Source: Candidatus Berkelbacteria bacterium
GTDB lineage: Bacteria > Patescibacteriota > UBA1384 > DTJR01
Length of the DNA: 64,000 nucleotides
Direction of reading: 5' to 3'
Assembly: GCA_029865605.1 (NCBI GenBank)
Contig: JAOUGE010000003.1
Location: 21,797-85,796 of the forward strand
The notes below the pieces were generated by a model. That model was not told where the DNA came from, searched no databases, and saw nothing but the letters and a program-made list of their open reading frames with translations. The translations under genes were made by a program, and so were the position numbers. Shown in pieces: positions 31,957 through 64,000 of this stretch. Position 1 is the first letter of the stretch. Each line of letters opens with the position of its first letter.

Positions 31957-32098
31957 AAACTAAGGCGATTACTGCTAATTCTTGGCGAATATTAACAAAA
32001 AAACAATTAAAAATCAATACCCACGCTTTTGCAAAGTTTCACAATTTTGCTACAGTGCAAGCGGAACATCAAATATAAAGATAATTTGGGGAGGAAAA

Positions 32099-33440: not shown

Positions 33441-33985
33441 GTCCAAGGTCACCATTCGTAAGAAAAAATTACGGAATTTCTAAAGCCGAAGTACTTCTTA
33501 TCGATGAAAACGGTAAATCCCTCGGTGCAAAGAAAACCTCGGAGGCGATCGAAGCGGCATTCGAAAAGGGTTATGACTTAGTTGAAATCGGCCCCAACGC
33601 AACACCTCCGGTTTGCAAAATGCTTGACTTCGGTAAATACATGTACGAAGCCGAAAAAAAGCAACAAAAAAGTAAGGCGAAAGGACATTTTGGAGAAGTT
33701 AAAGAAATCAGATTTACTCCCCGGACCGGCGAACATGATATAAACACAAAAATAGAGCGAATAAAAAAATTTGTAAGCGAAGGATACAAAATAAGACTAA
33801 CGGTTAAGATGAAGGGTCGGGAGAATATATATTCAGAGCGGGCACTAGAACAAATAAATAAGATAAAAGGGGTTACGGGAATGAAGTTTGAGCAAAGCCC
33901 AGTAAGGTTAGGAAATAGATTCACCTGCATATTAGTTTACAACAAGGAAAACAATGCCAAAGATAAAAACGAAAAAATCAATTAG
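33437..33985 (+). CDS. infC: translation initiation factor IF-3 (non-AUG start)
   Basis: Frame open from ~33437 (ATA) through ORF-track 33620..33985; translation ...IRKNYGISKAEVLLIDENGKSLGAK...VEIGPNATPPVCKMLDFGKYMYE... is full-length IF-3; first ATG is internal; start codon (ATA at 33437 or ATT at 33476) uncertain. Confidence 0.75.
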   Translation: MSPRSPFVRKNYGISKAEVLLIDENGKSLGAKKTSEAIEAAFEKGYDLVEIGPNATPPVCKMLDFGKYMYEAEKKQQKSKAKGHFGEVKEIRFTPRTGEHDINTKIERIKKFVSEGYKIRLTVKMKGRENIYSERALEQINKIKGVTGMKFEQSPVRLGNRFTCILVYNKENNAKDKNEKIN

Positions 33986-35526: not shown

Positions 35527-35590
35527 TTAATTATGAACAGGCGCCTCGATGTCGAGGCGCCTGGATTCGCTCGCAGCCATACTGTCGGGC

Positions 35591-35935
35591 TCATCCCTTA
35601 GCAGGGGCACTGCCCCTCATCGAGGGCTCCCGCGGCTCAATGAAGAACCGGATTGCGGTGCGTTCGGCAGCCCCGATTTGAACATCGACAAACGCCGGGT
35701 AACACCAGATGTCCAGCCCTCCAGGGGACAGATAGCCGCGCGCGATGGCGATCGCCTTGACCGCCTGGTTAAGCGCTCCCGCCCCGATGGTCTGAACCTC
35801 CGCCCGGCGGCTTTCCCTGATACAGCCGGCAATGGCCCCAGCCACCTTGTTAGGATCCGACTTGGCCCCAACCTTGAGAACACCATCTTCGAACACTACT
35901 TCCGGCCGTTTCTCCTTTGTTCCTCTGCGTGGCAT
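35591..35935 (-). CDS. SpoVS-family (Alba-like fold) protein; high-GC gene
   Basis: ORF 35591..35992; start probably ATG at 35935 preceded by AGGAGGTG; ...KVGAKSDPNKVAGAIAGCIRESRRAEVQTIGAGALNQAVKAIAIARGYLSPGGLDIWCYPAFVDVQIGAAERTAIRFFIEPR matches SpoVS almost end to end; ~60%+ GC vs ~40% flanks. Confidence 0.7.
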   Translation of the reverse strand: MPRRGTKEKRPEVVFEDGVLKVGAKSDPNKVAGAIAGCIRESRRAEVQTIGAGALNQAVKAIAIARGYLSPGGLDIWCYPAFVDVQIGAAERTAIRFFIEPREPSMRGSAPAKG

Positions 35936-36080
35936 CGTGTGCCACCTCCTGCTGACTGGTGTGTATGTTGCTGCAATCGTTGCTGCGAGCAAAAAAAGCT
36001 TATCATAAAAATATCAGTTTGTCATCGAAGCTACCATTTAAAATTATTTAGCTTTTGCTATAATCCTTTTTTAGAGGAAA

Positions 36081-36695
36081 ATGACTGAAGAAGAATTATT
36101 TACCCAAGAAAAGGAAACGCCGGAAGAAACTAAAAAGCGCAGTTTTTTAGTCAACTTATTCTTTGGTTTTATCGATTTTATTAAAACGGTTGCCTTAATC
36201 ATTATTATCGCTTTCGCCATCAGGGTTTTTGCCGTCCAGCCCTTCATTGTTGAGGGTCAGTCTATGGAGCCAATGTTTAAAAACAACGATTATCTGATTA
36301 CAGAAAAAATCTTATATCGGCTAAAAGACCCTGCTAGAGGCGATGTTGTTATTTTTCACCCTCCAGAAAATCCCTCTATAAACTATATCAAGAGAGTAAT
36401 CGGGCTGCCGGGAGATGTAATCGAAATCAAAGATGGTAAGGTTTTTGTTAACAGCCAAGCCTTGAGTGAATCCTATGTTGACTCTTCAACTCTGCTTAAT
36501 CTGAAGTCCCCGCAAGCGCCGATCACGCTAAAATCCGGAGAATATTACGTTTTAGGTGACAACCGAAATCACTCAAGAGATTCGCGCGAAATAGGCGCAA
36601 TTCCAAAACAAAACATAGTTTCAAGGATTTGGTTCAGACTGCTTCCGCCGTCAAGCATAAGGATCTTTGCCCGGGTCAACTACGACACACCCTAG
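36081..36695 (+). CDS. lepB: signal peptidase I
   Basis: 204 aa; N-terminal TM; catalytic GQSMEP (Ser) and IKRVIGLPGD (Lys) boxes, GDNRNHSxDSR box. Confidence 0.85.
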   Translation: MTEEELFTQEKETPEETKKRSFLVNLFFGFIDFIKTVALIIIIAFAIRVFAVQPFIVEGQSMEPMFKNNDYLITEKILYRLKDPARGDVVIFHPPENPSINYIKRVIGLPGDVIEIKDGKVFVNSQALSESYVDSSTLLNLKSPQAPITLKSGEYYVLGDNRNHSRDSREIGAIPKQNIVSRIWFRLLPPSSIRIFARVNYDTP

Positions 36696-37872: not shown

Positions 37873-39591
37873 ATGCCACTAGAAAAATCTTGCCGCCAGT
37901 GCAAGAACAGGTTCGTCATTGAAGATGATGAGTTAAAGTTTTTTTCAAAAATTTCCCCCCGGTTCTCAAATAAAACCTTCGAAATTCCCCCTCCGACTCT
38001 GTGTCCGGTCTGCCGTGAGATTCATCGGCTCATTCGCCGTAACGAAAGACATCTCTACAGCCGGAAATGCGACCTCTGCTCAAAACGAGTCGTCAGTATG
38101 TACTCAACCGGAAAGCCATTCCCGGTCTTTTGTCAAGAATGTTGGTGGGGCGGTAAATGGAACGCAAAAGACTATGGTGCAAAATACGAAAGCGGCTCTT
38201 TTTTTGAACAATTTAAGAAACTTTATAACAAGGTCCCCAAGGTCTGTGCCTCAATCATCAAAAGCACTAATTGCGACTTTAACACCTTTCTGGTTGATTC
38301 GAAAAATTGCTATATGACAACTTCATCAAGAGGAGAAAATTGCCTTTATTGCCGTAAGGTCGTTGATTGCCGTGATGTCGTTGACCTTCTTAACTCAAAC
38401 GAGTGCGAAAACTGCTATGAGACAATCAACTGCCATAACTGCTACGACTGCAATTTTGCAAATTTTTGCGAAAATTGTTCCAATTCGATGTTTTTATTTG
38501 CCTGCAAGGGTTGCCACAACTGTTTTATGAGCTCGAACCTGAACAACAAAAACTTCTATTTTTATAACCAGCCGCTTCCAAAGGAGGAATATTTGAAAAA
38601 GGTCAGCGAGCTCTGGAACGGCAGCTATAAAAGTCTAGAGAAACTAAAGGCGGAATACTTAGAACTTATTAAAGGCGCCACCCACAAAGAAAATACTAAC
38701 CGAAGAAGCGAGAATTGCTTAGGGAACGATCTTACAAACTGTAAAAATTGCCGGGACTGCTTTGAGATCAAAGACGGTGAAAACTGCATCTATGTTTACG
38801 ACAGCAAGGGCATAACCCCGCGCGACTCGATGGATTGCGATATGGGAGCTGGGGCCGAACTTTGCTACCAGCTTCTAAGCGGATATGTTGCCTATAGATG
38901 TATGTTCGGAGCGATCAATTATACTTCGAAAGATCTGCTCTACTGCTGCGATTGTTATGACAGTGATTTTCTTTTCGGCTGTGCTGGAATGAAAAATAGG
39001 AAATATTTTGTCTTAAACAGTGAGTATTCAAAAGAAGATTATGAAGAATTGGTCAGTAGAATAATCGCCGATATGATCGAGAATAAAGAATGGGGGGAGT
39101 ATTTCCCACTTGGCGACTCTACATTCGCTTACAATGAAGCCCTGGTTAGCATATATTTCCCTAAAACTAAACAAGAGGCTCAGAAAATCGGGGCGAACTG
39201 GCTTAATGACCACAAGGCAAAATATAAAGGGCCTTTTTATGAACCCTGCGACAGCATCTCCGACTACAAAAAATTCTCTCTCAAAAGAGACGAGCTTTTG
39301 CGAAGTGTAATCAGATGTCAGACCTCCGGCAGGCCGTTCAGAATAATCCCAAGGGAGCTCTCCTACTATATGGCAAACAATATTCCCATTCCACGCGAAC
39401 ATCCCGAAGCGAGATTTAAGAGAAGATTTTCGCTTCTTAACCCTCGCCAACTCTGGGAAAGAGATTGTATGTGCGAAGGCGAGTGCCTAAGGCACAGCGG
39501 GGAGTGCAAAACAAGGTTTAAAACGACCTATGCTCCAGAACGGCCAGAAAAGGTTTTTTGCGATAATTGCTATATTTATACGTTTAGATAA
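37873..39591 (+). CDS. large cysteine-rich protein (44 Cys), N- and C-terminal zinc-ribbon-like CxxC pairs, central tandem N-C-x2-C / C-x2-N-C repeats; function unknown
   Basis: 572-aa ORF with no recognisable SD; CRQC...CPVC, CDLC...CQEC, then NCYMT..NCLYC..DCRD..ECENCYETINCHNCYDCNFANFCENC..., C-term CMCEGEC...CKT...CDNC. Confidence 0.5.
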   Translation: MPLEKSCRQCKNRFVIEDDELKFFSKISPRFSNKTFEIPPPTLCPVCREIHRLIRRNERHLYSRKCDLCSKRVVSMYSTGKPFPVFCQECWWGGKWNAKDYGAKYESGSFFEQFKKLYNKVPKVCASIIKSTNCDFNTFLVDSKNCYMTTSSRGENCLYCRKVVDCRDVVDLLNSNECENCYETINCHNCYDCNFANFCENCSNSMFLFACKGCHNCFMSSNLNNKNFYFYNQPLPKEEYLKKVSELWNGSYKSLEKLKAEYLELIKGATHKENTNRRSENCLGNDLTNCKNCRDCFEIKDGENCIYVYDSKGITPRDSMDCDMGAGAELCYQLLSGYVAYRCMFGAINYTSKDLLYCCDCYDSDFLFGCAGMKNRKYFVLNSEYSKEDYEELVSRIIADMIENKEWGEYFPLGDSTFAYNEALVSIYFPKTKQEAQKIGANWLNDHKAKYKGPFYEPCDSISDYKKFSLKRDELLRSVIRCQTSGRPFRIIPRELSYYMANNIPIPREHPEARFKRRFSLLNPRQLWERDCMCEGECLRHSGECKTRFKTTYAPERPEKVFCDNCYIYTFR

Positions 39592-44610: not shown

Positions 44611-45222
44611 ATGGAATTCTTGACAGAAAAAAAGCCCTTGCTAAGTTATATTCGTATGAGAAAGACTATTTTATTAATTTTGAGCATCGGACTCGCGGTT
44701 TTCTCTTATTCTAAGTGCTTCGCCGAGACCACAAGTAGCACTAGCGCCTGGGCGGAAGCCAGTTCATCTTCTTCGTCAGCCAGTGCATCAGCAAATAGCG
44801 CGAGCGCAAATGCAACAGCCGATGGTTTCTCATCTAGCTCACAGGCTATAATCGAGAATCCTCCCGAAGGCCTCTACCCAGAGGTAATTGAGTATTATCC
44901 AGCACCACAAACACCGCAACCTGCTCTAAGCGCCACCACCGCCAGCAACGAAAAACTCTCGCAGGCTGCCCAACAAACTGAAGCGAATACGTCCGACTCA
45001 ACAGTCCAAGAATCTCTAGGTCTGAAAAACTTGGCTAGTAGGCTTAGTGATATTCAAAACAGACAAATTGGCATTGATAACACGCTCATCAATCTCGAAA
45101 GCTGGACGAGCAAGGTTCAAAAATACTACCTAATAAGCCTGCTGATGATAGTTATCATCCTTATTATCCTAGCCATAGATTCAATTGCTCTGCGAAAAAG
45201 GGTTTCGGAACTAGAAGCTTAA
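44611..45222 (+). CDS. secreted/anchored Ser-Ala-rich low-complexity protein with C-terminal TM anchor
   Basis: 203 aa; probable start at Met 44656 (MRKTILLILSIGLAVFSYSKCFA signal peptide); S/A-rich tract; coiled-coil-like region; C-terminal hydrophobic helix. Confidence 0.45.
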   Translation: MEFLTEKKPLLSYIRMRKTILLILSIGLAVFSYSKCFAETTSSTSAWAEASSSSSSASASANSASANATADGFSSSSQAIIENPPEGLYPEVIEYYPAPQTPQPALSATTASNEKLSQAAQQTEANTSDSTVQESLGLKNLASRLSDIQNRQIGIDNTLINLESWTSKVQKYYLISLLMIVIILIILAIDSIALRKRVSELEA

Positions 45223-46201: not shown

Positions 46202-46711
46202 ATGAAAATCCAAATCGTTTCTGACAGTTTAGCAAGGGGCTCGGATTACCTGAAGCGGGACAAGATGGCTCTAGTTTTAGACCTGGCTAAAAAAGCTTTT
46301 TTTATCTGGGTGGCGGTATTTATTATTAGCGAAATTGCGATCTCGGGCGGAAGATACGAGTTTAATATTTACCTGACAATCGTTCAGCTAGTAATTATCT
46401 TGACCGTTTTAATCTACTTCATGTCAGTCTCAAAGCTAAAAACAAAATCACTAAAAGAAAATCTCATTTGGGGGCTAGGTTTAGCAGTCTGGTTTGCCAT
46501 TCTAGATTTTCTGATCATTAATCTCTTACTCGAGAAAAATAGTCTCTCGATTTATAAGAACTGGGAAACCTACATCGCCTATGGATTACTTCTTTTGATC
46601 CCCGTGTTCCGATATTCACTAAAAATACGACCCCAATCCCTCACTCCCCCACCACCCCCAGAAGGAGAAAACGAAATAAGCAGCAAAGCTATCGGTGGAA
46701 TAAACCCTTAA
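46202..46711 (+). CDS. hypothetical membrane protein with C-terminal PPPPP tract
   Basis: 169 aa, 4 TM segments, AGGAG SD. Confidence 0.45.
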   Translation: MKIQIVSDSLARGSDYLKRDKMALVLDLAKKAFFIWVAVFIISEIAISGGRYEFNIYLTIVQLVIILTVLIYFMSVSKLKTKSLKENLIWGLGLAVWFAILDFLIINLLLEKNSLSIYKNWETYIAYGLLLLIPVFRYSLKIRPQSLTPPPPPEGENEISSKAIGGINP

Positions 46712-59941: not shown

Positions 59942-60711
59942 TTGGCGCTCATGCTTAAAGACGATACCTATACTCTATCTCAACAGCTTTCTGTAAACGC
60001 CGGCAAAGAGATCAATGAGCCGCAAAGGGTAGAGGCAACCTATACTGTAAAGCAAGGCGAAACGATAACCCAAATCGCCCAAAAATTTGACCTTCATGTT
60101 GGCACAATTCTCGAAGCAAATAAAATTCCAGCCGAACAGTCAAAAATAATAAAGCCGGGAACGATTCTAAAAATTCCCTCTTCAGACACCGTCACATCAA
60201 GCGACTGGCTGGTAACCCTAAACCGCGCCGAGGAGGCCGAGAGAAAAGCCGCCGAGCAGAAAAGGCAGGAGGAGCTAAGAAAACAGCTCGCAAAACGGGG
60301 GCGCGCCTACGCCGCTTCTTCATATTCTTACAGCTCGGGCGGATATGCCGGGGTCGACAGAAGCGGCCTTATTGTCCCTATTAGCCACAATGGAATAAGC
60401 CGGGGCTTTAGCTGGGGACACAGCGGAATTGATTACCGAGCCAATGTCGGCACGCCCGTCCGCGCAGCTGCTTCCGGAGAGTAATCCAAATAAGCGGTGG
60501 TTGGTCCGGGGGGTACGGAAACCAAATGCTAGTTGATCACGGCGGGGGTCGGGTAACAAGATATGCCCACCTATCTTCATTTACCGTCGGGGTTGGCCAA
60601 ACAGTTGGCCAGGGACAAACAATCGCTTATTCTGGAAACACCGGGCGCTCCACTGGTCCGCACTTGCACTTTGAACTTATCGTCGGCGGGCGACCAGTCA
60701 ATCCATTCTAA
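59942..60711 (+). pseudogene. LysM-domain M23 peptidase, split by a frameshift at ~60478..60485
   Basis: LysM (YTVKQGETITQIAQKF...) in ORF 59942..60484; M23 catalytic motifs ([14 protein letters not shown], then [12 protein letters not shown]...YAHL...[15 protein letters not shown]) continue in another frame (60526..60711); hand translation across the junction gives ...[25 protein letters not shown]... Confidence 0.65.
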
Positions 60712-60782: not shown

Positions 60783-61757
<975 letters not shown>

Positions 61758-61804: not shown

Positions 61805-63532
61805 ATGATCGCTCAAATATATTTAAAAAGAAAAACGAAACTCGATAAGCCGTTTGATTACGAGATTCCCCGCGGTATGAAAATCAAGAAATTCTCCCTG
61901 GTTGAAATAGAGTTGGGAACGAAAAAAACGATCGGCCTTGTCTGGGGCTTTAAAGATAGATCCCCCTATAATTTAAAAAAAATATCTAGGGTTTTATCTG
62001 CCGGTCCTGCCCTTACGCCAAATCAGTTAAAACTCGCGCATCTGATTTCCGATGAATACTTATCGACGTTAAGCGAGTCAATATTCTCTTTTCTCCCTAA
62101 ATTAAACATCCGCGACTTAAATAAAATAGGCTCAGAGGCCAAACACGCTAGGCGACAAAAACAAGAGAAAATGCTGCTAATCGCCGAGGCTTCCCAAAGA
62201 CTACTATTTTTTTGCCAGAAAATGCAGTTAGGCCAAAATCTAGCCGTGTTTCCTACAATCCACAGGGTTGAAGAAGCCTCCCGAGCCATAAAAAGATTAA
62301 ACCCTAAGCTTCAAGTTTACACCTGGCACAGCAAGCTTGAAAGCTACCAAAAAGCGAAAATCTGGCAAGATTTAATTTCAGATAAAAATAATATTGCTGT
62401 GATAGGAACAAGGCACTCATTATTACTCCCTTTTGTTTCGCTCAAGTCAGCCTATATTGATGAGCCAACCAGCTTTGCCTACCAAGAGGATCAAGCGCCA
62501 TATTACAACGCCTACAAAGTAGCCAGAACTCTTGCCGGCATATTTGGTGCTGATTTAATTATCGGTGAATCCTCCCCTGACATACTCTCGTTTGTTGCTC
62601 TGTCAAAAGGAGAGCTCAAGATAAAAGAAACCAAACCAGCGCTCGACTTTGAAATCCGTGACGGTTGGGAAAATTTCCTAAAAGATGCCCAAAACATAAA
62701 GAGTCTAAAGCCTAACTCAAAAATCTGCGTCATCGGCCCCTGGAAAAATCAGGCGAGGCTTCAATGTTCCGACTGCAAAAGCGAAATCACCTGCCCTAAC
62801 TGCCAAAACCCATTTTTTGAGGAGAACAGCTTTTCCTGCACTAAGTGCAAAAAAAATTATAAAAAAAGTCTTTGCTCAAAATGCGGGGGAGCAAATATTC
62901 AAAAAACCGGCTTTCTCTATTCTAAAATAATAAACGATCTAAAAGCGGTTTTCCCTCAAGCCTTAATTACGGCTAATCCAAAAGCATTTTCCAAATCTCA
63001 TATTGCCGTCACCTCAATCAATGAGCTGGACCGCCTCGATCCAATTTTCGAAACTGCCTTAATCCCCTACTTTATCGAGATGGCCAATTTCCCCTATCTA
63101 AACTTCAGAGAAAAATTATTCCAGAAAATCTGGGGGTTAAGTTCGGCCGGGGTAAAAAAAATCTACCTTTTCGGTGAAAGTCTAGGACAAGATCGTTTTA
63201 CTAGGCAGTTAACCACTAACAATTGGAAGGCGTTTTTAAAGGAAGAAATTGAAGAAAGAGCAAAGCTTAAGCTCCCCCCTTTTAGTAAGTCGGTCATGCT
63301 GGTAGTCAAGTGCCAAACGCCCGAAATTTGCGAAAAAATCAGCCGTGATGTGTTATCAAAAATTAAAATAACGGCCAACACCTATCCTTACGGTCAAGAC
63401 GCAAGAGCAGGAAAATTTACCCAAAAAACGCTATTGACCTTCCCCCACAAAGAGTGGCAAAAATACAAAGTTCTTTTGAAAAATACAAATCCCGATTTTC
63501 ACTTTGAGGTAGATCCGGTGGAATTTAGCTAG
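61805..63532 (+). CDS. priA: primosomal protein N' (PriA)-like with degenerate Walker A/B motifs
   Basis: 575 aa; PriA N-terminal 3' DNA-binding-like region, AVIGTRHSLLLPF and C-terminal Cys cluster (CSDCKSEITCPNC...CTKCKK...CSKCGG); no GxGKT/S P-loop; DEPTS replaces DEEHD. Confidence 0.7.
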   Translation: MIAQIYLKRKTKLDKPFDYEIPRGMKIKKFSLVEIELGTKKTIGLVWGFKDRSPYNLKKISRVLSAGPALTPNQLKLAHLISDEYLSTLSESIFSFLPKLNIRDLNKIGSEAKHARRQKQEKMLLIAEASQRLLFFCQKMQLGQNLAVFPTIHRVEEASRAIKRLNPKLQVYTWHSKLESYQKAKIWQDLISDKNNIAVIGTRHSLLLPFVSLKSAYIDEPTSFAYQEDQAPYYNAYKVARTLAGIFGADLIIGESSPDILSFVALSKGELKIKETKPALDFEIRDGWENFLKDAQNIKSLKPNSKICVIGPWKNQARLQCSDCKSEITCPNCQNPFFEENSFSCTKCKKNYKKSLCSKCGGANIQKTGFLYSKIINDLKAVFPQALITANPKAFSKSHIAVTSINELDRLDPIFETALIPYFIEMANFPYLNFREKLFQKIWGLSSAGVKKIYLFGESLGQDRFTRQLTTNNWKAFLKEEIEERAKLKLPPFSKSVMLVVKCQTPEICEKISRDVLSKIKITANTYPYGQDARAGKFTQKTLLTFPHKEWQKYKVLLKNTNPDFHFEVDPVEFS

Positions 63533-63589: not shown

Positions 63590-64000
63590 CTAGGGCCGCT
63601 CGCGGATGACCACCTTCATCGACTCGGTCCACATGAGAGTGGGGTCCTTGATAGACCAGACGAGCGCGACCACATTGGCCGCGCCTCTGCCCTCGATCGT
63701 ATCGCCGACTACCCTGAGAGGCTCACCGGCATCGAGAACAAATCGAAAGCCTTCGGGAGCAGCAGTGAGCTTGGTCCGCTCACCGTCTGCCTCCTTCCGG
63801 TACCAATCCACCCAGACCTTCACAACCTGATCCGGGCGGGTGGCGTCATAGATCCGGAAGCTGCACCCGAAGACAGATGGGTGCAGAACACACGCCCGCG
63901 CCTCCGGAGTGACGGGAGTGCACATCTGCCCCTCGTTGAGGCGGACCTTGTCCCACCTCCCCGTCTTCTCCACTTCGAGGATCTCAGCGCCCGGGGGTTG
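63590..64000 (-). CDS. hypothetical protein, high-GC gene, 5' end beyond the window
   Basis: ORF 63590..63973 (127 aa from first Met); frame stays open to the window edge; ~65% GC; Ala/Arg/Gly/Val-rich; no recognisable motifs. Confidence 0.4.
   Translation of the reverse strand, partial: QPPGAEILEVEKTGRWDKVRLNEGQMCTPVTPEARACVLHPSVFGCSFRIYDATRPDQVVKVWVDWYRKEADGERTKLTAAPEGFRFVLDAGEPLRVVGDTIEGRGAANVVALVWSIKDPTLMWTESMKVVIRERP

What the first reader, a model, noticed from the sequence alone, without database searches (positions are those of the whole stretch)
61805..63532. PriA-like protein lacking Walker A and with a degenerate DExH box
The PriA architecture is clear. There is an N-terminal 3'-DNA-binding region, the helicase-core segment AVIGTRHSLLLPF (matching IVIGTRSALFLPF) and the Cys-rich zinc domain. 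The expected GxxGSGKT P-loop is absent (LLIAEASQRLLFF in its place). DEEHD is DEPTS. This predicts an ATPase-dead PriA that could still recognise forks and recruit the replicative helicase, which is an unusual state for the replication-restart primosome.
Basis: partly seen in the sequence, partly recalled or inferred. Interest (0 to 1): 0.5.

Follow-up and report, generated by a model that had tools for sequence, protein, structure and literature searches.

The report
Motor-less PriA replication-restart protein
This gene from an uncultivated Berkelbacteria (CPR) bacterium encodes a PriA replication-restart protein that keeps its DNA-fork-recognition parts but has lost every sequence motif needed to burn ATP, a "pseudohelicase" state published only for Deinococcus-Thermus but which appears here to be common in several uncultivated bacterial phyla.

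Summary
ORF 61805-63532 (+, 575 aa) is a real, intact and very divergent PriA. It has the 3'-end-binding domain with all five E. coli pocket residues identical, two RecA-like lobes, an eight-cysteine zinc region and a C-terminal domain. The predicted fold matches solved PriA over its whole length (TM 0.76).

The P-loop is replaced and one residue shorter, with K230 changed to Arg132. DEEH is DEPT, GSATP is GESSP, and motif V and both motif VI arginines are lost. There is no winged-helix domain.

This is not decay. About 30 relatives share the same substitutions. The gene keeps the ancestral priA-def-fmt position in every Berkelbacteria locus examined, and dN/dS against the closest relative is about 0.1. 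The loop next to the dead Walker B (FAYxEDQxPYY) is the most conserved segment.

The best reading is an ATPase-dead fork-recognition scaffold, like D. radiodurans PriA or E. coli PriA K230R. It is therefore a new member of a known kind. Motif-less PriAs also turned up in other Patescibacteria, Omnitrophota and Elusimicrobia, which the searchable literature does not report. A second priA elsewhere in the genome could not be excluded.

The parts
61805..63532 (+). Complete ORF (575 aa plus stop): motif-less PriA orthologue ('priA*')
   Evidence: ORF call. Identical in the ENA contig. PriA by Pfam, NCBIfam, PDB and fold.
61805..62104 (+). 3'-DNA-binding domain (residues 1-100). Pocket residues F17, D18, Y19, G38 and K58 are identical to E. 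coli F16, D17, Y18, G37 and K61.
   Evidence: PF17764 E 2.8e-18. Residue mapping. Pocket definition from PMC5778457.
62105..62164 (+). Short linker (residues 101-120) in place of the roughly 100-residue winged-helix domain of E. coli PriA
   Evidence: Alignment gaps. Among the best structural matches is the WH-deletion PriA 6dcr.
62165..62629 (+). RecA-like lobe 1 (residues 121-275), fold retained
   Evidence: AF2 secondary structure. Foldseek alignment to PriA.
62174..62212 (+). Former Walker A region, LLIAEASQRLLFF (residues 124-136). The loop is one residue shorter and has no glycines. Arg132 sits at the E. coli K230 position and is invariant in the family.
   Evidence: In the AF2 model strand 122-126 runs almost directly into helix 129-139.
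62456..62473 (+). Former Walker B / DExH box, IDEPTS (residues 218-223). The family consensus is D[DEQ]P.
62474..62512 (+). Aromatic-rich-loop equivalent, FAYQEDQAPYYNA (residues 224-236). It is the most conserved segment of the family. Tyr234 corresponds to E. coli Y335. The loop is acidic-aromatic rather than basic-aromatic.
   Evidence: Ten invariant residues. Top conservation window at 0.90. Mapping. ARL definition from PMC5175346. pLDDT is below 50 at residues 227-230, which suggests an exposed flexible loop.
62564..62578 (+). Former motif III, GESSP instead of GSATP (residues 254-258)
62630..63214 (+). RecA-like lobe 2 (residues 276-470), carrying the CRR insertion. Motif V equivalent is TSINELDR (403-410; nt 63011-63034). 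Motif VI equivalent is GLSSAGVK (444-451; nt 63134-63157), with both arginines lost.
   Evidence: Fold.
62765..62884 (+). Cysteine-rich region with four CxxC pairs (C321, 324, 330, 333, 345, 348, 357, 360), predicted to bind two zinc ions
   Evidence: All eight are invariant in alignments A1, A2 and A3 and align with E. coli C436-C479.
63215..63529 (+). C-terminal domain (residues 471-575) with the conserved E481/R485/P491-P492 'ERxxLxLPPF' motif
   Evidence: Invariant or near-invariant columns. Aligned to the PriA CTD in the Foldseek match. Pfam PriA_C is not detected in this protein but is detected in tier-2 orthologues.
60807..61757 (+). obg GTPase gene, the conserved upstream neighbour. 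It is part of the syntenic block gyrB-gyrA-infB-(M23)-obg-priA*-GT-def-fmt-rpsP-khpA-trmD.

Best explanation
The gene is the Berkelbacteria orthologue of priA and has become a pseudohelicase.

It keeps the PriA scaffold: the 3'BD with an intact 3'-OH-end pocket, two RecA-like lobes, a two-zinc CRR and the CTD. It cannot bind or hydrolyse ATP, because motifs I, III, V and VI and the second half of motif II are replaced and the P-loop is shortened.

Proposed mechanism (inferred). The protein recognises abandoned forks and D-loops by capturing the nascent leading-strand 3' end in the 3'BD pocket and by contacting the junction through the helicase-core surface. It then serves as a static landing platform that recruits the replicative helicase DnaB onto lagging-strand template ssDNA. 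Recruitment could be direct, as reported for D. radiodurans PriA, or through a loader or SSB. The protein does not unwind the nascent lagging strand itself.

The invariant acidic-aromatic loop FAYxEDQxPYY sits where the E. coli aromatic-rich loop contacts the fork junction. It is the best candidate for the key retained or re-purposed contact surface. Arg132, at the old Walker A lysine position, may fill the empty nucleotide site structurally.

Shown here: anatomy, motif loss, fold, family-wide conservation, synteny and purifying selection. Inferred: loss of ATPase activity, fork binding and DnaB recruitment.
For: - PriA identity and whole-length fold.
- Residue-level map to E. coli PriA: the 3'BD pocket is identical at 5 of 5 positions, all 8 CRR cysteines align, and Y335 is kept. 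GVTGSGKT becomes A-EASQRL, DEEH becomes DEPT, GSATP becomes GESSP, GTQMLAKG becomes TSINELDR and QVAGRAGR becomes GLSSAGVK.
- The same substitutions occur in all 10 close relatives and in about 30 representative clusters scoring above 360 bits.
- Positional orthology. The gene sits in gyrA-infB-obg-priA*-GT-def-fmt-rpsP in L001, L002, L006, L007, L008 and L009. Canonical CPR-type PriA P0014 and the tier-2 motif-less PriAs P0053 and P0194 also precede def/fmt.
- Purifying selection. dN/dS is about 0.10 against the closest relative (pN 0.21, pS 0.72). The ORF is full-length in every relative. Conservation peaks at residues 219-240.
- No second PriA-like ORF lies in the window or in any fetched locus.
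- Precedent. D. radiodurans PriA has K-to-R in GKT and degenerate motifs I and II. It has no ATPase or helicase activity, but it binds fork DNA and DnaB (PMC4504706). E. coli priA300 (K230R) lacks ATPase activity yet supports restart through the PriA-PriB pathway (PMC5778457).
Against: - No biochemical data exist for this protein or any CPR PriA, so loss of ATPase activity is inferred from sequence only.
- D219-E220 of the DExH box survive in this particular protein, although not across the family.
- The ARL equivalent is acidic (E228, D229), which fits protein binding better than DNA-phosphate binding, so its role is uncertain.
- The protein diverges faster than its housekeeping neighbours: 30-41% identity against 43-89%. 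That suggests relaxed constraint or a changed function.
- Only about 74 kb of a MAG of unknown total size was visible, so a canonical priA elsewhere in the genome is not excluded.
- No DnaB, loader or SSB gene was seen in the window, so the partners are unknown.
Confidence: 0.75

Rival explanations
1. A neofunctionalised PriA-derived DNA-binding protein that no longer works in replication restart. It might be a structure-specific DNA-binding or regulatory factor. Restart would then be handled by another system or by a second, canonical PriA elsewhere in the genome.
For: - The family is hyper-divergent. It has 24% identity even to tier-2 motif-less PriAs from other Berkelbacteria. It falls below every PriA equivalog cut-off and evolves faster than its neighbours.
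- The ARL equivalent has changed from basic to acidic.
- Only part of the genome is visible.
Against: - The gene occupies the ancestral priA-def-fmt slot in all loci.
- No second PriA was seen in any locus.
- The 3'-end pocket, CRR and CTD motifs that define PriA function are retained.
- The one Berkelbacteria MAG with a tier-2 PriA has it in the same slot, which indicates orthologous replacement rather than paralogy.
Confidence: 0.12
2. The protein is still an ATPase or translocase and uses a non-canonical nucleotide-binding site.
For: - D219-E220 survive in this protein.
- An invariant Arg132 sits where the Walker A lysine was.
- A second weak nucleotide site has been proposed for E. coli PriA (PMC5778457).
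Against: - Five motifs are lost at once, the P-loop is shortened and has no glycines, and both motif VI arginine fingers are absent.
- K230R alone abolishes ATPase activity in E. coli PriA.
- The DE pair is not conserved in the family, which has DD, ED or DQ instead.
- The former Walker A segment is one of the least conserved parts of lobe 1.
Confidence: 0.04
3. A decaying, non-functional remnant (pseudogene in progress) or an assembly artefact.
For: - All catalytic motifs are lost.
- The source annotates the protein as 'hypothetical protein'.
- The window carries three single-base deletions relative to another assembly of the same contig, in other genes.
Against: - The ORF is intact and identical in both assemblies.
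- Full-length orthologues occur in about 30 clusters at 30-64% identity with 47 invariant positions.
- pN 0.21 is far below pS 0.72.
- The fold prediction is confident.
- Synteny is strict.
Confidence: 0.03

Closest known systems
Deinococcus radiodurans / Deinococcus-Thermus PriA pseudohelicase (Lopper, Boone & Morrow 2015, PMC4504706)
   Same: - A PriA orthologue with degenerate Walker A and B motifs and Arg in place of the GKT lysine.
- Retained PriA DNA-binding architecture.
- The organism lacks obvious PriB and DnaT partners. For CPR this is presumed, not tested here.
- The same predicted role: fork recognition and DnaB recruitment without unwinding.
   Different: - It comes from a different phylum (Patescibacteria / Ca. 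Berkelbacteria). That makes an independent loss likely, but relatedness to the Deinococcus clade was not tested because no sequence was available.
- Degeneration goes further here. Motifs III, V and VI are also gone, the P-loop is shortened and the WH domain is absent. The paper reports poor matches to motifs I and II only.
- The protein is 575 aa and so divergent that it fails every PriA equivalog threshold.
- No biochemistry exists for it.
E. coli PriA K230R (priA300) and K230A/D variants
   Same: The substitution at the Walker A lysine is the same as the invariant Arg132 here. These variants show experimentally that an ATPase-dead PriA can still assemble a primosome and support restart through the PriA-PriB pathway (PMC5778457).
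   Different: - They are engineered single-residue changes in an otherwise canonical 732-aa PriA with a WH domain and PriB, DnaT and DnaC partners.
- priA300 fails in the PriA-PriC pathway, which needs helicase activity.
- The natural protein here has lost the whole ATP site.
Canonical PriA (E. coli / K. pneumoniae; PDB 4NL4, 6DCR, 6DGD, 8FAK; TIGR00595 / PRK05580)
   Same: - Domain order 3'BD, lobe 1, lobe 2 with the CRR inserted, then CTD.
- Identical 3'-end pocket residues.
- Eight CRR cysteines.
- Y335 equivalent kept.
- 'LPPF' CTD motif.
- Fold TM 0.76.
- The priA-def-fmt gene neighbourhood, as in canonical CPR-type PriA P0014.
   Different: - No ATPase motifs and no WH domain.
- The ARL is acidic instead of basic.
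- 15-18% sequence identity in the structural alignments.
- Scores of 98-130 bits against equivalog cut-offs of 230-1250.
Tier-2 motif-less PriAs of other Patescibacteria (e.g. P0053 from a Patescibacteria group bacterium; P0194 from Ca. Berkelbacteria RIFCSPHIGHO2_12_FULL_36_9), annotated 'primosomal protein N''
   Same: - Same genomic slot.
- Same kind of substitutions: 'NNR' or 'ENR' in place of GKT, and D[EQ]PxDY.YK[DE]EQ.P.Y after the old Walker B.
- Motifs V and VI lost.

   Different: - They are about 40 residues longer, are still recognised by Pfam PriA_C, and are closer to canonical PriA (29-33% identity) than to the window's family (24%).
- The window's family is the most diverged end of this series.

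Membership tests
PriA (primosomal protein N' / replication restart protein PriA) | N-terminal 3'-DNA-binding domain with the 3'-end pocket (E. coli D17, Y18, G37, K61) | tested here: met
   PF17764 E 2.8e-18. F17, D18, Y19, G38 and K58 are identical to E. coli.
PriA (primosomal protein N' / replication restart protein PriA) | SF2 helicase core made of two RecA-like lobes (fold) | tested here: met
   AF2 pLDDT 85. Foldseek to 8fak, 6dcr and 4nl4 at E 1e-31 to 1e-33, TM 0.74-0.76.
PriA (primosomal protein N' / replication restart protein PriA) | Helicase/ATPase motifs I (GxxGSGKT), II (DEEH), III (GSATP), V (GTQMxxKG) and VI (QxxGRxGR) | tested here: not met
   All are replaced. There are no Pfam DEAD, ResIII or Helicase_C hits.
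PriA (primosomal protein N' / replication restart protein PriA) | Cysteine-rich region CxxC(x4) inserted in lobe 2, binding two zinc ions | tested here: met
   Eight invariant cysteines align to E. coli C436-C479. Zinc binding itself was not tested.
PriA (primosomal protein N' / replication restart protein PriA) | C-terminal domain (PriA_C, S10-like) | tested here: inconclusive
   Pfam PF18074 is not detected in this protein. However, the conserved ERxxLxLPPF motif is present, the whole-length structural alignment to PriA includes the CTD, and PF18074 is detected in tier-2 positional orthologues.
PriA (primosomal protein N' / replication restart protein PriA) | Winged-helix domain between the 3'BD and the helicase core | tested here: not met
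   It is absent; about 20 residues form a linker instead. It is also absent from many motif-bearing short PriAs (P0013, P0014, P0017, P0018), so it is not universal to the family.
PriA (primosomal protein N' / replication restart protein PriA) | Curated equivalog score threshold (TIGR00595, PRK05580 and PRK14873 models) | tested here: not met
   The best score is 130 bits against a cut-off of 813. TIGR00595 gives 98 bits against 230.
PriA (primosomal protein N' / replication restart protein PriA) | Orthologous genomic position (priA upstream of def-fmt). This is supportive evidence, not a defining feature. | tested here: met
PriA pseudohelicase (Deinococcus-Thermus type, PMC4504706) | Clearly PriA-derived, with degenerate Walker A and B motifs and the GKT lysine replaced by Arg | tested here: met
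   Arg132 sits at the K230 position and is invariant in the family. DEEH is DEPT.
PriA pseudohelicase (Deinococcus-Thermus type, PMC4504706) | No ATP hydrolysis and no duplex unwinding | not testable with these tools
   This needs purified protein. It is predicted from the loss of five motifs.
PriA pseudohelicase (Deinococcus-Thermus type, PMC4504706) | Retained ssDNA and fork binding, and physical interaction with the cognate DnaB | not testable with these tools
   Only indirect evidence is available: conserved 3'BD pocket, ARL tyrosine and CRR.
PriA pseudohelicase (Deinococcus-Thermus type, PMC4504706) | Common descent with the Deinococcus-Thermus PriA clade | not tested
The host is a Patescibacteria MAG, so an independent loss is more likely.

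The most novel reading that the evidence does not exclude
Motor-less PriA may be the normal state across much of the Candidate Phyla Radiation rather than a Deinococcus oddity, and it may have arisen repeatedly in other uncultivated phyla such as Omnitrophota and Elusimicrobia. If so, a large share of bacterial diversity restarts replication without any PriA translocase activity. In the Berkelbacteria family, the former coupling loop next to the dead Walker B (the invariant FAYxEDQxPYY) would then have been re-purposed as a new partner-binding surface, for example for direct recruitment of DnaB, DciA or SSB.
Probability: 0.35. Interest if true: 0.6.

Novelty: new member of a known kind. Interest (0 to 1): 0.4.

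Why it matters
PriA is the central, near-universal initiator of bacterial replication restart. [quoted passage not shown]

This gene is a second, more extreme natural example, from a different phylum with tiny genomes. The survey it prompted found more than 100 distinct 50%-identity clusters of PriA homologues without a P-loop or motif VI. Named members come from Patescibacteria, Omnitrophota and Elusimicrobia.

If confirmed, three things follow:
- The scaffold and recognition function of PriA would be its indispensable core, and the motor would be an accessory that is lost repeatedly.
- The family would give a natural minimal PriA (no WH, no ATPase) for structural and mechanistic work on how DnaB is recruited without PriB, DnaT or PriC.
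- Annotation pipelines currently mislabel these proteins. They are called either 'hypothetical protein', as here, or 'primosomal protein N'' or 'Probable replication restart protein PriA' with nothing in the name to flag the missing ATPase motifs.

Tried and rejected
1. **Shifted or cryptic P-loop.** Regex and three independent alignments found none. The protein has no GK[ST] anywhere.
2. **Frameshift or assembly artefact.** The ORF is colinear with PriA from end to end and identical in a second assembly. The window's three 1-nt deletions lie in other genes.
3. **Pseudogene.** Rejected by family conservation, synteny and dN/dS of about 0.1.
4. **Second priA nearby.** phmmer and tblastn with six canonical PriAs against all ORFs of the window and 12 loci hit only the motif-less gene. 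The whole MAG could not be scanned.
5. **Replication partners in the window.** Pfam scans of 25 further ORFs found UvrA, RNase HII, a PD-(D/E)XK nuclease, GyrA and GyrB, but no DnaB, DciA, DnaC or SSB.
6. **One loss or many.** An NJ tree built without the motif columns put canonical sequences in at least 5 clades among motif-less ones. The distances are saturated and the sample is biased by a motif-less query profile, so I treat this as suggestive only.
7. **GTDB genome scan with the family alignment.** It returned only 3 loci, because the tool seeds on exact peptide patterns. That is enough to name the host lineage but not to measure prevalence.
8. **Literature.** Six searches found no report of motif-less PriA outside Deinococcus-Thermus. 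The library is incomplete, so absence is not proof.
9. **Relation to the Deinococcus PriA clade.** Not tested, because no sequence was obtainable with the available tools.
Full report
**1. What is there.** The window carries an intact ORF at 61805-63532 on the + strand (ATG start, 575 aa). It lies 47 nt downstream of obg. An identical protein is on record as 'MAG: hypothetical protein OEV37_01630 [Candidatus Berkelbacteria bacterium]' on a 173-kb contig. An independent ENA assembly of the same contig is identical across the ORF. Pfam recognises only the PriA 3'-DNA-binding domain (PF17764, residues 10-98, E 2.8e-18). NCBIfam PriA equivalogs hit significantly (E 1e-28 to 1e-38) but at 98-130 bits, far below their cut-offs of 230-1250. 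phmmer finds K. pneumoniae and E. coli PriA structures at E about 4e-12. An AlphaFold2 model built on ten family members is confident (pLDDT 85, pTM 0.82). Foldseek aligns it over its whole length to E. coli PriA (8fak_H and 6dcr_A, the winged-helix deletion protein) at E about 1e-33 and TM 0.76. The next best folds, DbpA and Mfd, score at E about 1e-10. The PriA architecture is therefore real.

**2. Motif state, residue by residue.** I aligned the protein with E. coli K-12 PriA (taken from NC_000913.3), canonical short PriAs and relatives (consistent).
- Retained: the 3'-end pocket F16/D17/Y18/G37/K61 corresponds to F17/D18/Y19/G38/K58, all identical. All eight CRR cysteines align. The CTD 'ERxxLxLPPF' motif is present. 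The ARL tyrosine Y335 corresponds to Y234.
- Lost: Walker A GVTGSGKT becomes A-EASQRL. It has one residue fewer, no glycines, K230 changed to R132 and T231 changed to L133. DEEH becomes DEPT. Motif III GSATP becomes GESSP. Motif V GTQMLAKG becomes TSINELDR. Motif VI QVAGRAGR becomes GLSSAGVK, with both arginines gone.
- In the model, strand 122-126 runs almost directly into helix 129-139, which leaves no room for a phosphate-binding loop.
- There is no GK[ST] anywhere in the protein (and direct reading), so a shifted P-loop is excluded.
- The roughly 100-residue winged-helix domain is replaced by a linker of about 20 residues. Many motif-bearing short PriAs also lack it.
- The pocket, CRR and ARL definitions come from PMC5778457 and PMC5175346.

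**3. Constraint rather than decay.** Ten close relatives (30-41% identity) share every one of these substitutions. An exhaustive profile search of 1.84 billion representatives found about 30 clusters above 360 bits, and all are motif-less. The family has 47 invariant positions. They concentrate in the 3'BD, the CRR cysteines, the CTD motif and, above all, residues 219-240. That stretch holds the former Walker B and the ARL-equivalent FAYxEDQxPYYxA, and it is the most conserved 15-residue window in the protein (0.90 majority fraction). The former Walker A segment is among the least conserved, apart from invariant R132. Against the closest relative (64% identity over 316 codons), pN is 0.21 and pS is 0.72, which gives dN/dS of about 0.10 with dS near saturation. 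The protein does evolve faster than its neighbours. Between loci it shows 30-41% identity. GT, def and fmt show 43-52%, and obg, infB, rpsP, khpA, trmD, gyrA and gyrB show 54-89%.

**4. Orthology.** The gene order gyrB-gyrA-infB-(LysM/M23)-obg-priA*-GT-def-fmt-rpsP-khpA-trmD is conserved in six loci. Two of them are from named Ca. Berkelbacteria GTDB representatives, and one is from a MAG labelled Saccharibacteria. A canonical, motif-bearing CPR-type PriA (P0014) is followed directly by def. Longer (~615 aa) motif-less PriAs also sit immediately upstream of (GT)-def-fmt-rpsP. These come from a 'Patescibacteria group bacterium' (P0053) and from Ca. Berkelbacteria RIFCSPHIGHO2_12_FULL_36_9 (P0194). 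P0194 carries 'NNR' in place of GKT and 'IDEPEDYGYKDEQSPYY', the same derived motifs as the window protein. The window's family is therefore the most diverged end of an already motif-less orthologous lineage, not a paralogue. Searches with six canonical PriAs against every ORF of the window and of twelve related loci hit only the motif-less gene.

**5. How it most likely works.** Three published facts frame the inference.
- E. coli PriA K230R (priA300) has no ATPase, helicase or translocase activity. It still assembles primosomes in vitro and behaves nearly like wild type in vivo, failing only where the PriA-PriC route is needed (PMC5778457).
- D. radiodurans PriA naturally has Arg at that lysine and degenerate motifs I and II. 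It shows no ATPase or unwinding activity, binds ssDNA and forks with E. coli-like affinity, and forms a complex with its DnaB (PMC4504706).
- The E. coli ARL crosslinks to the fork junction (PMC5175346).

I therefore propose that this protein is a static fork- and D-loop-recognition platform. The 3'BD pocket captures the nascent leading-strand 3' end and the helicase-core surface sits on the junction. The CRR, the CTD and the conserved loop then recruit DnaB, directly or through a loader or SSB, onto exposed lagging-strand template. Any removal of a nascent lagging strand must be unnecessary or done by another helicase. Anatomy, conservation and orthology are shown here. ATPase loss, fork binding and partner recruitment are inferred. 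One uncertainty is that the conserved loop is acidic (E228, D229) where E. coli has K/Q/Q/R. That fits a protein-binding role better than a DNA-phosphate contact.

**6. Comparison with what is known.** The closest known thing is the Deinococcus-Thermus PriA pseudohelicase. The window protein meets the sequence criterion of that kind, being PriA-derived with K-to-R and degenerate motifs I and II. It differs in three ways: it comes from another phylum, it has also lost motifs III, V and VI and the WH domain, and it is so divergent that the source names it 'hypothetical'. As a member of PriA in the strict curated sense, it fails the ATPase-motif and equivalog-score tests. It passes on the 3'BD, fold, CRR and genomic position. 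I file it as a PriA orthologue of the pseudohelicase kind, which makes it a new member of a known kind.

**7. Wider observation.** Of the 161 full-length sequences aligned, 135 lack both a Walker A GK[ST] and motif VI. These came from the 150 best representatives plus earlier hits. A second search seeded with diverse motif-less sequences added 20 more, alongside many canonical PriAs. Named motif-less members come from:
- a Patescibacteria group bacterium, Ca. Berkelbacteria and Ca. Yanofskybacteria;
- Omnitrophica WOR_2 and Ca. Omnitrophota (several clusters);
- Elusimicrobia CG1_02_37_114.

All are annotated 'primosomal protein N'' or 'Probable replication restart protein PriA'. Canonical PriAs also exist in Omnitrophota (P0218). 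DEEH erosion is graded across these sequences. On a rough NJ tree, canonical sequences fall in at least five clades among motif-less ones. Together these points suggest repeated loss, but the sample is biased by the motif-less query profile and the tree is weak. Six literature searches found no description of this outside Deinococcus-Thermus. The 2017 review states that helicase activity is conserved 'except in Deinococcus'.

**8. Verdict.** Interest is moderate at 0.4. The single gene is a further example of a described phenomenon. Its apparent prevalence across uncultivated phyla is unreported in the searchable literature and makes a minimal, natural, motor-less PriA available for mechanistic study.

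Noticed in passing
window ~52459, ~59826, ~60477 (compare L001): Over the 12.2-kb overlap, the window differs from the ENA assembly of the same contig only by three single-base deletions and has no substitutions. The deletions split a GT4 glycosyltransferase (called as 405 aa in L001). They also split the LysM/M23 peptidase, which is 371 aa in L001 but appears in the window as two ORFs, 59942-60484 and 60526-60711, in different frames. These are either polishing errors in one assembly or real frameshifts.
   Followed up: partly
window 63590-64000 (- strand; full gene = L001 11786-12349): A 187-aa ORF lies directly downstream of priA* on the opposite strand. Its GC content is 62%, against 41% for priA* and about 42% for the window. 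It has a hydrophobic, signal- or lipoprotein-like N-terminus (MRTLTLAVVVVVIVSVVVPASC) and no Pfam hit. It is absent from all syntenic loci (L002, L006-L009, L014), so it looks like a recent foreign insertion between priA* and GT-def-fmt.
   Followed up: partly
P0012 / L005 (NCBI GCA_054037295.1, contig JBPLFB010000025.1): This is another motif-less PriA of 683 aa that still has a winged-helix-length insert. It has 'FKDRIYTY' in place of the P-loop and EEEY in place of DEEH. It sits in a diderm-type context (LolA, LapA, FabF, RNase III) that is unrelated to the Berkelbacteria synteny, so it is probably a further independent loss in another lineage.
   Followed up: partly
L010 15610-16956 and L011 8585-9931 (Ca. 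Berkelbacteria RIFCSPHIGHO2_12_FULL_36_9-type contigs): def and fmt are fused into a single 448-aa ORF that carries Pep_deformylase, Formyl_trans_N and Formyl_trans_C. In the other Berkelbacteria loci they are separate, adjacent genes.
   Followed up: no
window ~31960-31985: Gene orientation switches sharply here. Essentially all genes from 1 to 31956 are on the - strand (ribosomal protein operons, tuf, fusA, rpoBC, RNase P RNA, uvrA). From 31982 onward, most are on the + strand. GC skew changes from about -0.2 to about 0, and AT skew changes from negative to positive. The intergenic gap is only about 25 nt, so the region has no room for an origin, but the skew change suggests a replication-related strand switch nearby.
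   Followed up: no
window 37873-39591 (+), 35549-36088 (+), 44611-45222 (+), 46202-46711 (+): Four ORFs, one of them 572 aa long, have no significant Pfam match even at E<=1. They sit among housekeeping genes.
   Followed up: no
window 33620-33985 (+): The IF-3 ORF found by the ATG/GTG/TTG rule is only 121 aa and covers the C-terminal domain alone. From my own knowledge, infC often starts at a non-canonical codon, so the N-terminal domain may lie upstream of the listed start. I did not check.
   Followed up: no
P0125/P0171 (Elusimicrobia CG1_02_37_114); P0114/P0174, P0140, P0215, P0269 (Omnitrophota); P0016/P0188 (Ca. Yanofskybacteria): PriA homologues annotated 'primosomal protein N'' or 'Probable replication restart protein PriA' lack the Walker A GK[ST] and motif VI arginines in phyla outside Deinococcota. 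Omnitrophota also has canonical PriAs (P0218). Public annotation does not distinguish the two states.
   Followed up: partly
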